A stretch of DNA of 64,000 bases from a virus: IMG/VR virus record IMGVR_UViG_3300007512_000009, positions 32,001 to 96,000 of that record; one strand, written 5' to 3'. The notes under the pieces are model-generated. The model did not search any database, was not told where the DNA came from, and saw only the letters and a list, made by a program, of their open reading frames with translations. Of the stretch, positions 1,161 through 4,303 are shown in pieces. The translations under genes and the position numbers were made by a program. How positions within the stretch are numbered: the first letter of the stretch is position 1; each line of letters opens with the position of its first letter.

Positions 1161-2639
1161 TTACCACTGATTCGAAGGTATATGAGGGTTATAATCATTT
1201 CTAGAAGACATTGGTGGTTGGGAAAACGAATTATTTTCTATGTGGGTAATTAAATTATTATTATTTGTAGGACTACTAGGAAATATGGTGGGAACGTTAT
1301 CAGCCATTGAAAGTCTTGTATTTTCTCTTTGCAGTTCAAGACCAGTATTTGATGGTACTGATTGAACATCACCACCGAGGCCCAACATGTCCCTGGCCGC
1401 ATCTGCTATGTCATCACCAATCCAAGGTATATGTGTCAACATGTTTATAACATTGTTAATTGACTTTTTCAATTGTGTAAATATCCAACTAAAGAAATCA
1501 CCAACCGCTTCAATAGGAATAGCAACAAGTCCCATGACCAAATTAAATCGGCTTTTTAAAGTTGACCCAATATTACCAAAGAAATCACCAATCAAATCAA
1601 CAAAATTAATGTCTTTTAAGTCTTTAAAAAATTTAGCCGCACCGTCTAAACCTATCCAACCCATCACTGTTTCTAGCAAGCCCAATACTGAATCCATTAC
1701 TAATTCTGGCATACCAACCATCCAATTTAGTAAAAATTGTCCCAAATCTTCAAGTGCACCTGTGATGTCACCAGAAAACAATTTTTGGAATCCACTAATT
1801 AAATTACCAAAAATGCCTTCAAACACTGCGGAAAAATCATCCATCGATATCAGTCCAAAGGTGAAAAATTCTATAATGCTACCTATAAAGTCACCAATAC
1901 CACCTAGTATATCACCGCTTGCAAATTTATCCCAAGAGCGTATGGTTGCTTCTACCAGTGACCATATTATAGAAATCGGTAAAAGAAACTTAGAGAATGC
2001 TTTACCTAATTGGAAAAATACCTTAAATATCTTTCCCATATGTTTAAATTGAGGAGCAATGAATTTAAAAACAAACTTACCTATTTCAATAAATGGTTTA
2101 AGTATTTTACCGATAACCCTAAAAAACTTACCTAGGGCCTTAAAAAATGTACCAACCTTTTGTAGTCTTCCACCTTTAGAAAAAACTGTTAACCATTTAC
2201 CCCATTTGATGTTTGCAATCCACTGGAAAAAACTGTTTATTTTCTTTACCCCAGGCAACTTACTCATAATTGACCCAACCTGACCAAAAATTCCAGCAAC
2301 AATTCCTGCTGCCAATGCAGGTACTGCTAATAAAAGCAGTTTAACAATACCTGTTAAATTAGTATCTTTAAATGGTTGCGTCATCTCTGATTTAGCATCA
2401 AGGAATGCGTCTTGAAAACCTTCAAGAAGATTTAACATAAAACTTTCACGCTCTCTCTTTTCTTCTTTCGCTTTGGTCTTGGACTCTTGGCCCATTTTAC
2501 TAATACCCGCAGAAACTTTTTTAACTTCCTTGGTTTGTTTTGCATCTTCTACATTAAGTGCTTTTTCATTAGCAAGCATAATATTCTTAGTGAATATACT
2601 TGTTATCGATAGATTTTCTGGGTTATTATCATTAGCCAT
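1161..2639 (-). CDS. Tape-measure-like / baseplate hub protein (gp29 position)
   Basis: 492 aa of amphipathic helical G/F/I/L-rich repeats (GDILGGIGDF, GDITGALEDLG); follows gp26/gp51 as in other T4-like phages. Confidence 0.6.
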   Translation of the reverse strand: MANDNNPENLSITSIFTKNIMLANEKALNVEDAKQTKEVKKVSAGISKMGQESKTKAKEEKRERESFMLNLLEGFQDAFLDAKSEMTQPFKDTNLTGIVKLLLLAVPALAAGIVAGIFGQVGSIMSKLPGVKKINSFFQWIANIKWGKWLTVFSKGGRLQKVGTFFKALGKFFRVIGKILKPFIEIGKFVFKFIAPQFKHMGKIFKVFFQLGKAFSKFLLPISIIWSLVEATIRSWDKFASGDILGGIGDFIGSIIEFFTFGLISMDDFSAVFEGIFGNLISGFQKLFSGDITGALEDLGQFLLNWMVGMPELVMDSVLGLLETVMGWIGLDGAAKFFKDLKDINFVDLIGDFFGNIGSTLKSRFNLVMGLVAIPIEAVGDFFSWIFTQLKKSINNVINMLTHIPWIGDDIADAARDMLGLGGDVQSVPSNTGLELQRENTRLSMADNVPTIFPSSPTNNNNLITHIENNSFSQPPMSSRNDYNPHIPSNQW

Positions 2640-2655: not shown

Positions 2656-2787
2656 TTAAAATTTGTTCTGCTCATTCTTTTTATTTTCTTCTTTAATAAA
2701 TTTAGTTAATAAAGTTATGTATACTTGTCTTTCCCATGGTAACATATTTTCTAAATCATTCAATGAATAGTTGTGGTGTTGCATCAT
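2656..2787 (-). CDS. gp51: Baseplate hub assembly protein gp51 (below ORF-track cutoff; possibly the C-terminal part of a gp26-gp51 frameshift fusion)
   Basis: Manual translation MMQHHNYSLNDLENMLPWERQVYITLLTKFIKEENKKNEQNKF*, the MMQHH.YSL..LENM.PWER..Y signature of gp51-like proteins. Confidence 0.85.
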   Translation of the reverse strand: MMQHHNYSLNDLENMLPWERQVYITLLTKFIKEENKKNEQNKF

Positions 2788-2834
2788 TGAAAAATTTGTT
2801 TGATAATAGTTAATTAACGTATCATGACAAAGAC

Positions 2835-3530
2835 CTATGCGAAAAAATCCTGTAGTTTCTCCATTGTAACTGAATTTTCATTTAAACAACTATCACATTT
2901 GAAATTTATCACTTTTTGCATTTTAGGCATCGTTTCAAAGAATTTTTGTATCTTCTCAAATTGCAAGTGGTTAAGACTATCTACGAAATCTGATAGTTCT
3001 TCATCTGTAGAATCTTTTGCCTCATGAACTGTTTTAGCATCATAAATCTTGTCTATGCACATATTTACCACTTTAAGAGGGTTTTCCTTCATGTTTGGTG
3101 AATCAAGCATACCAAAAGTAGGATATCTCATAACAACACCAATGTCATCAGTCAGTTGAATTTTGCTGTCATGACCTTCAGTTTTAATAACACCGACATC
3201 AGAAAGGTTTACTCCGACAAGACATTCATGTTCACATTTTTCACACTTTAACTTTAGTTTGACCGTTTCACCTACCGATTTCGACCTCAAATTTAAAAAT
3301 AGATATTCAATATCAAAAACGGGTAGTGTTTGAACATCAACGTCATCACTTTCTATACAGTTATTAATGATGGTTTTAACTGCATTTGCTAATTCTCTGT
3401 CATCTTCCGATTCAACGGCCATCAATAAAATTTTTTCTTCTTTAACCAAAAACGGTCTATAGTTAATTGTATCACCGTTAGACGGTAATTTTAGACTGTA
3501 TTTTGGTGTTGCAACTTTTGGTAGTGCCAT
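2835..3530 (-). CDS. gp26: Baseplate hub subunit gp26
   Basis: MALPKVATPKYSLKLPS, YRPFLVKEEKILLMA, FDIEYLFLNLRSKSVGE, QFEKIQKFFETMPK, C-terminal CxxC..LQDFF. Confidence 0.93.
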   Translation of the reverse strand: MALPKVATPKYSLKLPSNGDTINYRPFLVKEEKILLMAVESEDDRELANAVKTIINNCIESDDVDVQTLPVFDIEYLFLNLRSKSVGETVKLKLKCEKCEHECLVGVNLSDVGVIKTEGHDSKIQLTDDIGVVMRYPTFGMLDSPNMKENPLKVVNMCIDKIYDAKTVHEAKDSTDEELSDFVDSLNHLQFEKIQKFFETMPKMQKVINFKCDSCLNENSVTMEKLQDFFA

Positions 3531-3550: not shown

Positions 3551-4303
3551 TTATAACCAATTACCCATACCCCCAATGTTGAAGCCAGTTATCTCCTGTA
3601 AAGTAGCCGCTCCACCATCTGCCCAAACCTCAAACAATTGTGAAAAGTTGAATGGATTACCATACTCTCCACCTAAAATTCCTAACTCCTGCAGAGTACC
3701 ACCCAGACCTTCGTCGAAATTTCTTACTGCAGGTACATCATATAAAAACTCTGCGGCCACTGCACCACCAAAAGAAATAATGGTGGGTACATACCTTCTG
3801 AATGCTAGGGTGACTGATTGTTGAGCAATAGCACCACCACCTTCATTGCTGAGCGTTAATTCACCGATTGCTTTAGGGAACACTTCTTCTACCCTTATTC
3901 GATAAATGGGCATATCAAACTCATTGAGTACGTATATGTACATATCACATTTGTAGTCATCATAATAGGCAAGTCTACCACTTCTTGGGTCTACTATACC
4001 ATCCATCCAAGTTTCAAAAACCCTTCTCTCCCACATATCTTTACCCAAAAATAAATTCAATGTTATTTCTGAACCATAAAGTGAATCATATGGTATCTCT
4101 CTTGAAGGCCCTGCATAATTTTTATCGGGTGCGGTGGCAATTGACCTGCCGGGCGCTGAAACTGAATTACACATTAAACTCATCCTGTTGCCCTGAGCGA
4201 AGTCGGAAATACCTAAAAATCCACTAAATTCAATTAAGTATTTGTTTGGTGTAAATACACCAAACTTCTTTATATTATTTATCATTCTATCTATTCTTGG
4301 CAT
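3551..4303 (-). CDS. gp54: Tail-tube-fold baseplate tail tube initiator (gp54-like)
   Basis: gp19-like fold motifs (LMCNSVSAPGR, REIPY, VFETWMD, YYDDY, EEVFPKAI, VTLAFR); position next to gp26 and gp2. Confidence 0.7.
   Translation of the reverse strand: MPRIDRMINNIKKFGVFTPNKYLIEFSGFLGISDFAQGNRMSLMCNSVSAPGRSIATAPDKNYAGPSREIPYDSLYGSEITLNLFLGKDMWERRVFETWMDGIVDPRSGRLAYYDDYKCDMYIYVLNEFDMPIYRIRVEEVFPKAIGELTLSNEGGGAIAQQSVTLAFRRYVPTIISFGGAVAAEFLYDVPAVRNFDEGLGGTLQELGILGGEYGNPFNFSQLFEVWADGGAATLQEITGFNIGGMGNWL

What the first reader, a model, noticed from the sequence alone, without database searches (positions are those of the whole stretch)
2656..2850. Candidate programmed -1 frameshift fusing gp26 to gp51, like lambda G/GT
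gp26 ends CAG GAT TTT TTC GCA TAG, which contains a canonical X XXY YYZ heptamer, T TTT TTC (2847-2841). The -1 frame is open from there into gp51: ...QDFF-RIGLCHDTLINYYQTNFS-MMQHHNYSL...PWERQVY. The segment before the first Met (NYYQTNF) resembles sequence I recall upstream of annotated gp51 starts in other T4-like phages. The pair sits directly upstream of the tape-measure-like gene, the position of frameshifted tail assembly chaperones in lambda and many other tailed phages. This suggests gp26/gp51 are the T4-lineage G/GT equivalent, which I am not aware of being standard annotation.
Basis: partly seen in the sequence, partly recalled or inferred. Interest (0 to 1): 0.8.

Follow-up and report, generated by a model that had tools for sequence, protein, structure and literature searches.

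The report
Frameshifted gp26/gp51 tail chaperone gene
One tail-assembly gene of this uncultured T4-like cyanophage very probably makes a 231-residue and a 291-residue protein because some ribosomes slip back one base on a strictly conserved TTTTTTC; the signal is real and unannotated in genome records, but a 2022 paper already described this chaperone pair in T4-like phages.

Summary
gp26 (3530..2835, minus strand) ends GAT TTT TTC GCA TAG. The heptamer T TTT TTC (2847-2841) is in the X XXY YYZ phase, and the -1 frame runs open for 61 codons into 'gp51'.

In 87 of 88 gp26 loci from distant T4-like phages the same T TTT TT(C/T) sits at the same place. These include cyanophages, a Pelagibacter myophage, Aeh1, a KVP40-like phage, Cronobacter S13 and Stenotrophomonas YB07. 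The -1 frame is open in all of them and encodes conserved residues upstream of any start codon.

gp26 plus the -1 extension is colinear, without gaps, with full-length T4 gp51. T4 has no heptamer and carries two PF12322 genes (26 and 51). Eight heptamer-bearing complete genomes carry one.

The N-terminal domain of gp26 folds like HK97-type tail assembly chaperones. The locus lies between a tube-initiator-like gene and a tape-measure-like gene.

So the lambda G/GT reading is supported. [quoted passage not shown] I could not read that paper.

This scan has also reported the same signal on at least 250 other genomes. Verdict: a well-supported, unannotated new member of a known kind.

The parts
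3551..4303 (-). gp54/gp19-like tail tube (initiator) gene, immediately upstream of gp26
   Evidence: phrog_45 'tail tube' E 1.3e-34; Pfam gp19 E 0.001, below cut-off. The syntenic gene is annotated as baseplate tail tube initiator in HTVC008M, Aeh1 and R10Z.
2835..3530 (-). gp26 ORF, the short chaperone form (TAC-N), 231 aa including stop TAG 2837-2835
   Evidence: PF12322 E 1.6e-68; phrog_150 E 7.7e-73. AF2 model pLDDT 89.5. N-domain 1-96 matches 3fgx Z 8.3, HK97 tail assembly chaperone 2ob9 Z 7.4 and YqbN 3klu Z 7.1. Cys 96, 99, 212 and 215 form a split zinc ribbon.
2859..2862 (-). SD-like GGAG, 11 nt 5' of the heptamer (possible upstream stimulator)
   Evidence: Read. In relatives, GAG at codon -4 is 66% against 23% background (p 1e-10). 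GGA at codon -3 is 63% against 32% (p 5e-8). Together these give GGAGGA ending 8 nt before the heptamer. The stimulatory role is inferred, not shown.
2841..2847 (-). slippery heptamer T TTT TTC in the gp26 frame
   Evidence: T TTT TT(C/T) in 87/88 loci; the 0-frame stop lies exactly one codon later in 76 of them.
2656..2841 (-). -1 frame extension (61 codons plus TAA), the C-terminal tail of the long form (TAC-NC, 291 aa)
   Evidence: phrog_634 'baseplate hub assembly catalyst' E 3.1e-26, and phrog_150 positions 237-281. BLASTP to T4 gp51 residues 207-246, E 8e-8. AF2 gives three helices, pLDDT 84.
2656..2787 (-). the ATG-initiated 43-aa ORF that gene callers would name gp51
   Evidence: It lacks the conserved 18 residues and most of predicted helix 1.
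1161..2639 (-). 492-aa tape-measure-like gene directly downstream
   Evidence: phrog_305 'tail length tape measure protein' E 5.1e-6 only. No Pfam hit, and no significant match to T4 gp29. The syntenic gene in HTVC008M is annotated as putative tape measure.

Best explanation
gp26 and 'gp51' of this phage are one recoded gene for a tail (hub/tape-measure) assembly chaperone.

Most ribosomes terminate at TAG 2837-2835 and make the 231-aa short form. A minority slip back one base while the two tRNA-Phe sit on UUU UUC of U UUU UUC. They then read CGC AUA GGU... and make a 291-aa long form. This long form is the gp26 body plus a 61-residue, three-helix tail.

The long form is the equivalent of T4 gp51 and the short form the equivalent of T4 gp26. 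T4 has replaced the slip by a gene duplication.

By analogy with lambda G/GT, the shared body would bind the tape-measure-like protein, and the tail would recruit another tail or hub component. Neither form would stay in the virion.

Shown here: the signal, its conservation, its phase, the colinearity with T4 gp51, and the fold resemblance.

Inferred: that ribosomes (not RNA polymerase) slip, the ratio of the two forms, the binding partners, and any stimulatory role of the upstream GGAG(GA) and of the stop codon one codon after the heptamer.
For: 1. Heptamer conservation. It is in phase in 87/88 loci whose gp26 is only 24-48% identical to the window's. These include Kyanoviridae, HTVC008M, Aeh1, a KVP40-like phage and YB07. 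Cronobacter S13 and further Aeh1 relatives also carry it.
2. Nucleotide-level selection. X1 is T in 77/77 across five codons. The first Phe is TTT in 77/77. The second Phe is TTC in 74% against 29% background. Other FF pairs inside gp26 use mixed codons.
3. The -1 frame is open for 56-69 codons in every complete locus, against a median of 5 in the +1 frame. In 11 loci a -1-frame stop lies immediately 5' of the heptamer, so the shift can only happen there.
4. The first ATG of the -1 frame lies at codon 19 or 20 in 45/77 loci. Residues 4-18 are nevertheless conserved and show coding periodicity. Gene callers pick many different starts.
5. Colinearity. On phrog_150 the window gp26 covers 5-232, the extension covers 237-281, and T4 gp51 covers 13-280. 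T4 gp51 residues 1-201 are a PF12322 domain (E 3.9e-52) and residues 207-246 match the extension. 'DVF + 12 aa + YQINH' in T4 aligns ungapped with 'DFF + 12 aa + YQTNF' across the predicted junction.
6. Complementary distribution. T4 has two PF12322 genes and encodes FF as TTC TTT. Eight complete genomes with the heptamer have one PF12322 gene. The window's own record has one PF12322 gene and one gp51 tail.
7. An SD-like GGAGGA is enriched 8 nt upstream of the heptamer.
8. The three best structural matches of the N-domain include two recognised tail assembly chaperones, well above the next row at Z 4.5.
9. Literature. G-T frameshifting is conserved in long-tailed phages 'except T4' (PMC5009743). 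gp26 and gp51 are hub assembly chaperones and gp51 is absent from the particle (PMC3004832).
Against: - No protein or RNA data exist; everything is comparative.
- No downstream stimulatory RNA structure is conserved. RNAalifold found no consensus pairs. The mean folding z just 3' of the heptamer is -0.74, against -0.1 to -0.67 in control windows. The window's own sequence folds weakly.
- 16/77 loci have an ATG at codons 2-4 of the extension, so a free gp51 peptide may also be made there.
- The loci are related, so the P values overstate independence.
- The fold match (Z 7-8) lies in the range the tool warns can be a common arrangement. Foldseek gave no significant hit.
[quoted passage not shown] I could not read what it proposes for phages of this type.
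Confidence: 0.75

Rival explanations
1. The fusion is made, but by transcriptional slippage. RNA polymerase adds one U on the T run, so a subset of mRNAs encodes the 291-aa protein in a single frame.
For: The site is a homopolymer run, T6 in 57/77 loci and T7 or longer in 20/77. No conserved RNA structure was found. [quoted passage not shown]
Against: - Known bacterial slippage sites need about 8-9 A/T (own knowledge of the Thermus dnaX and IS-element cases).
- C at position 7 is enriched (74% against 29%), which shortens the run rather than lengthening it.
- The run is always in the X XXY YYZ phase.
- An SD-like motif at a dnaX-like distance is enriched.
- Ackermannviridae-type relatives keep the -1 arrangement with only T4-T5.
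Confidence: 0.13
2. There is no recoding. gp51 is an independent small protein started at its own ATG/GTG/TTG or by termination-reinitiation. The T run only reflects a conserved Phe-Phe in an AT-rich genome.
For: Phe-Phe is conserved even in T4 gp26. The genome has 36% G+C and TTT is the preferred Phe codon at 71%. Some relatives have an ATG 2-4 codons after the gp26 stop region, and GenBank annotates gp51 that way.
Against: - X1 is T in 77/77 regardless of the amino acid. T4, where gene 25 follows, uses TTC TTT.
- Conserved, periodic coding lies upstream of the first start codon in most loci.
- The alignment with T4 gp51 across the junction is ungapped.
- Genomes with the heptamer have one PF12322 gene, T4 has two.
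- A 43-aa product from ATG 2787 would lack most of predicted helix 1.
Confidence: 0.05
3. The site is an artefact: a homopolymer sequencing or assembly error has split a single gp51-like gene.
For: A few database proteins read straight through the junction in one frame (P0008, P0018, P0140). These could equally be errors in the opposite direction.
Against: The same two-frame arrangement is seen in finished isolate genomes from many laboratories, in 80 metagenomic contigs, and in 2181 protein clusters of the short ORF type.
Confidence: 0.01

Closest known systems
T4 gp26 (208 aa) and gp51 (249 aa), hub assembly chaperones; identified as the tail assembly chaperones (TAC-N / TAC-NC) of T4-like phages by Vladimirov, Gautam and Davidson, Virology 2022, 566:9-15 (seen only through PMC10885494 and PMC12846349)
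   Same: The same PF12322 body. The same C-terminal tail, with the window's extension matching T4 gp51 residues 207-246. A short and a long form that share the body. Both are listed as chaperones, and gp51 is absent from the virion (PMC3004832).
   Different: T4 encodes the two forms as two divergently transcribed genes and has no slippery site. Here one gene plus a -1 slip would give both forms.
Lambda gpG/gpGT and the conserved -1 frameshift of tail assembly chaperone genes (Levin 1993; Xu, Hendrix, Duda 2004, 2013, 2014, as reviewed in PMC5009743)
   Same: [quoted passage not shown] Nested products. A position between a tube-type gene and a tape-measure-type gene. The N-domain fold resembles the HK97 tail assembly chaperone 2ob9 (Z 7.4, 85 residues aligned).
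   Different: The heptamer is U UUU UUC, not G GGA AAG. gp26 is about twice as long, with an extra alpha/beta domain and a split zinc ribbon. The extension is only about 60 residues. No sequence similarity was detected.
E. coli dnaX -1 frameshift (A AAA AAG with upstream SD-like element and downstream hairpin; own knowledge, Larsen et al. 1994)
   Same: A tandem-slippage heptamer with an SD-like GGAG(GA) enriched about 8-11 nt upstream.
   Different: No conserved downstream hairpin was found. A 0-frame stop one codon after the heptamer is conserved instead.
GTTTTT motif at the 3' end of TAC-N genes of Vandenendeviridae and Andersonviridae (PMC12846349)
   Same: A poly-T signal near the end of a myovirus chaperone gene, with an always-open -1 frame.
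   Different: The protein family is different. The motif there is shorter and not a full X XXY YYZ heptamer.

Membership tests
T4 gp26/gp51 chaperone family (PF12322, phrog_150, phrog_634) | PF12322 / phrog_150 body | tested here: met
   E 1.6e-68 and 7.7e-73.
T4 gp26/gp51 chaperone family (PF12322, phrog_150, phrog_634) | gp51-type C-terminal tail contiguous with the body | tested here: met
   The extension hits phrog_634 at E 3.1e-26 and phrog_150 positions 237-281. It matches T4 gp51 residues 207-246 at E 8e-8, ungapped across the junction, but only after a -1 shift.
Programmed -1 ribosomal frameshift signal | X XXY YYZ heptamer in the 0 frame inside the overlap between the two frames | tested here: met
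   T TTT TTC at 2847-2841. The upstream -1-frame stop is at 2880-2878 and the 0-frame stop at 2837-2835.
Programmed -1 ribosomal frameshift signal | Conservation of the heptamer beyond what the protein sequence requires | tested here: met
   X1 is T in 77/77 across five codons, and T4 encodes the same FF as TTC TTT.
Programmed -1 ribosomal frameshift signal | Downstream stimulatory hairpin or pseudoknot | tested here: inconclusive
   No consensus structure was found and the folding z is close to controls. Hairpins occur in some clades only.
Programmed -1 ribosomal frameshift signal | Upstream SD-like stimulator | tested here: inconclusive
   Codon choice is enriched for GAG GGA (p 1e-10 and 5e-8), and the window has GGAG 11 nt upstream. 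Function was not tested.
Programmed -1 ribosomal frameshift signal | Trans-frame protein actually made, and made by ribosomes | not testable with these tools
   Needs mass spectrometry, reporters and transcript sequencing.
Lambda G/GT-type tail assembly chaperone | Gene lies between the tube gene and the tape measure gene | tested here: inconclusive
   The upstream tube-like gene is clear (phrog_45 E 1.3e-34). The downstream protein is tape-measure-like only at E 5e-6.
Lambda G/GT-type tail assembly chaperone | TAC fold | tested here: inconclusive
   N-domain 1-96 matches 3fgx Z 8.3, 2ob9 Z 7.4 and 3klu Z 7.1, and the next unrelated row is Z 4.5. Foldseek was not significant (2ob9 prob 0.77, E 0.56).
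Lambda G/GT-type tail assembly chaperone | Binds the tape measure protein, is absent from the virion, and the ratio of short to long form matters | not testable with these tools
   The only support is from T4 genetics in the literature (PMC3004832).

The most novel reading that the evidence does not exclude
The one-gene, slip-based arrangement is the ancestral state of the whole T4 superfamily and is truly ribosomal. It would be driven by U UUU UUC together with an upstream SD-like GGAGGA and the adjacent stop codon, rather than by an RNA structure. T4's two genes 26 and 51 would then be a late, hard-wired derivative. If the 2022 paper argued for a non-ribosomal route in these phages, the phase and codon signatures found here would argue against it.
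Probability: 0.35. Interest if true: 0.45.

Novelty: new member of a known kind. Interest (0 to 1): 0.3.

Why it matters
It closes, for this phage, the one stated exception ('except T4') to the rule that long-tailed phages make a short and a long tail chaperone by frameshifting. It also explains what the tiny, inconsistently annotated 'gp51' ORF of cyanophages is.

The practical value is mainly for annotation. Hundreds of GenBank and metagenomic T4-like genomes call gp51 with arbitrary starts, or not at all, and none inspected carries the joined CDS.

The principle itself was published in 2022, so this is confirmation and extension, not discovery. No experiment has yet shown the trans-frame protein, as far as the papers I could search show.

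Tried and rejected
- RNAalifold on 77 aligned sites gave no consensus structure. Sliding MFE z-scores next to the heptamer were barely below control windows. I therefore do not claim a downstream stimulator, despite clear hairpins in some clades.
- A word-index search for longer proteins containing the extension found nothing.
- A profile search of PDB sequences with the gp26 alignment found nothing.
- Foldseek against PDB gave no significant hit.
- Pfam scans of 75 gp26 homologues at a lax threshold showed no TAC family.
- Three literature searches for gp26/gp51 plus frameshift found nothing relevant. The prior paper surfaced only through the PRFect reference list. Look-ups by DOI and PMID failed.
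- A locus search seeded with Aeh1 gp26 returned only 7 loci.
- I did not fold the trans-frame fusion, because a -1 join cannot be given by reference.
- BLASTP of the 492-aa protein against T4 gp29 was not significant.

Full report
**What is there**

The window is a fragment of an uncultured T4-like cyanophage-type genome. The record is an IMG/VR contig of 126 kb, about 70% complete, with 36% G+C. Its best nucleotide matches are 65-72% identical, to P-SSM2 and S-SRM01.

Four genes lie in a row on the minus strand:
- A gp54/gp19-like tail tube gene (4303..3551; phrog_45 E 1.3e-34).
- gp26 (3530..2835; PF12322 E 1.6e-68).
- A small ORF that gene callers name gp51 (ATG 2787..2656).
- A 492-aa protein with weak tape-measure similarity (2639..1161; phrog_305 E 5e-6).

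gp26 ends GAT TTT TTC GCA TAG. T TTT TTC (2847-2841) is a canonical tandem-slippage heptamer in the gp26 frame. The -1 frame is open from there for 61 codons to TAA 2658-2656.

**Is it more than chance**

I collected 80 IMG/VR loci whose gp26 is 39-48% identical to the window's, plus annotated genomes from other T4-like lineages.
- 87 of 88 loci carry T TTT TT(C/T) in the same phase. The 0-frame stop is exactly one codon later in 76 of them. Cronobacter S13 and further Aeh1 relatives, fetched later, carry it too.
- The lineages include Kyanoviridae, Pelagibacter phage HTVC008M, Aeromonas phage Aeh1 and relatives, a KVP40-like Vibrio phage, Cronobacter phage S13 and Stenotrophomonas phage YB07.

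In 77 non-identical loci:
- The base before TTT is T every time, although the codon is GAT, AGT, AAT, TCT or GGT.
- The first Phe codon is always TTT.
- The second Phe codon is TTC in 74%, against 29% background.
- Other Phe-Phe pairs inside gp26 use mixed codons.
- The -1 frame is open for 56-69 codons in every complete locus, against a median of 5 in the +1 frame.
- In 11 loci a -1-frame stop abuts the heptamer, so the shift has nowhere else to occur.

The loci are related, so the nominal probabilities (about 1e-14) are overstated. The variety of codons shows the constraint is on the nucleotide.

**The extension is coding from the heptamer on**

- The first ATG in the -1 frame lies at codon 19 or 20 in 45 of 77 loci.
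- Residues 4-18 are nevertheless conserved: L9, N16 and F17 in 75/77 and H6 in 59/77.
- Those residues show the usual codon-phase entropy pattern (1.12 / 0.85 / 1.56), as do the later codons.
- A profile of the extension finds 2181 protein clusters, whose called starts are scattered over at least eight profile positions.
- AlphaFold predicts three helices (2-22, 27-31, 35-60; pLDDT 84). A product started at ATG 2787 would lose most of helix 1.

**Link to T4**

- T4 gp51 (249 aa) is a full PF12322 domain (residues 1-201, E 3.9e-52) followed by a tail.
- The tail (207-246) matches the window's -1 extension (BLASTP E 8e-8; hhalign E 8e-5).
- T4 gp26 and gp51 are paralogues (E 2e-6).
- On phrog_150 the window gp26 covers positions 5-232, the extension 237-281, and T4 gp51 13-280.
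- Across the predicted junction, T4 'DVF + 12 residues + YQINH' aligns without a gap to the window's 'DFF + 12 residues + YQTNF'.
- T4 gp26 keeps Phe-Phe but encodes it as TTC TTT, and gene 25 follows it.
- T4 has two PF12322 genes. Eight complete genomes with the heptamer have one. The window's own record has one PF12322 gene and one gp51 tail.

The simplest reading is that the long form is made by recoding here and by a second gene in T4.

**Chaperone character**

The AF2 model of gp26 is confident (pLDDT 89.5, pTM 0.82). In an exhaustive structural comparison the N-terminal domain (1-96) matches:
- 3fgx (Z 8.3), an uncharacterised protein.
- The HK97 tail assembly chaperone 2ob9 (Z 7.4, 85 residues aligned).
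- YqbN 3klu (Z 7.1).

The next unrelated row is at Z 4.5. Foldseek alone was not significant, so I rate this as supportive, not decisive. The rest of the protein is an alpha/beta insert plus a split zinc ribbon (Cys 96, 99, 212, 215).

The T4 literature lists gp26 and gp51 as hub assembly chaperones, with gp51 absent from the particle (PMC3004832). The recoding review states that G-T frameshifting is conserved in long-tailed phages 'except T4' (PMC5009743).

**Mechanism**

I favour ribosomal -1 tandem slippage of two tRNA-Phe, for four reasons:
- The phase of the heptamer is strict.
- C at position 7 is enriched, which limits the run length.
- An SD-like GGAGGA is enriched 8 nt upstream (GAG 66% against 23%, GGA 63% against 32%). 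The window has GGAG 11 nt upstream.
- The adjacent stop codon is conserved.

I found no conserved downstream RNA structure. Transcriptional slippage on the T6-T7 run cannot be excluded by sequence alone. A free gp51 peptide may also be made in the lineages that have an early ATG.

**Novelty**

- The PRFect paper (PMC10885494) and a 2025 Pakpunavirus paper (PMC12846349) cite Vladimirov, Gautam and Davidson (Virology 2022, 566:9-15).
- They also cite it for poly-T -1 signals in TAC-N genes of T4-like phages.
- The paper itself is not held, so I cannot say exactly what it states about cyanophages or about mechanism.
- This scan has also reported the same signal on at least 250 other genomes. Some of those notes said no paper exists, which is wrong.
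- None of the 14 GenBank records I inspected annotates a joined CDS.

**Verdict**

This is a well-supported, unannotated new member of a published kind.

Noticed in passing
L088:4280-4460, L103:1300-1520, L104:1240-1445, L105:1320-1540: Ackermannviridae-type and related phages (4HA11, Vibrio VP-1, D509, Aeromonas TSW001) keep a gp51-like ORF of 61-71 codons open in the -1 frame after gp26, but they lack a canonical heptamer. They have NTT TTY one base out of phase (ATT TTC, GTT TTT, CTT TTC). This suggests single-tRNA slippage or another route. GenBank annotates the ORF as hypothetical, or not at all.
   Followed up: partly
L001:3157-3181, L004:3230-3256, L083:1861-1885, L055, L063: In several clades a 9-13 bp hairpin starts 5-8 nt after the heptamer. 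The arm sequences differ between clades, for example AUGGCUCA/UGAGUCAU against UGGUACAU/AUGUACCA. There is no common register, so RNAalifold sees nothing. The window itself has only a weak AU-rich fold.
   Followed up: partly
window 2835-3530 (-), gp26 residues 96-103 and 212-215: gp26 carries a split four-cysteine zinc ribbon. It gives weak structural matches to NrdR, LysW and ZPR1 ribbons (Z about 3.3), and it is conserved in T4 gp26 and gp51. This feature is not found in lambda-type tail assembly chaperones.
   Followed up: partly
proteins P0008, P0018, P0140: A few metagenomic proteins read through the gp26/gp51 junction in a single frame, with junctions such as FF-RISMAH and FF-LLILSH. 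They may be natural hard-wired fusions or homopolymer assembly errors. I did not check the DNA.
   Followed up: no
L003:3418-5853 (Synechococcus phage ACG-2014i): gp51 is not annotated at all in this RefSeq genome, although the heptamer and a 61-codon -1 ORF are present. The next gene is a 961-aa 'endolysin', which suggests a fusion of the tape-measure-like protein with the M23 peptidase seen as separate genes in P-SSM2 and S-SRM01.
   Followed up: no
L099-L101:1860-1875: A more distant clade (30% identity to Aeh1 gp26) has GTA AAT TTT TTT CGR TAA. This offers two overlapping canonical heptamers (A AAT TTT and T TTT TTT) before a 68-codon -1 ORF.
   Followed up: partly
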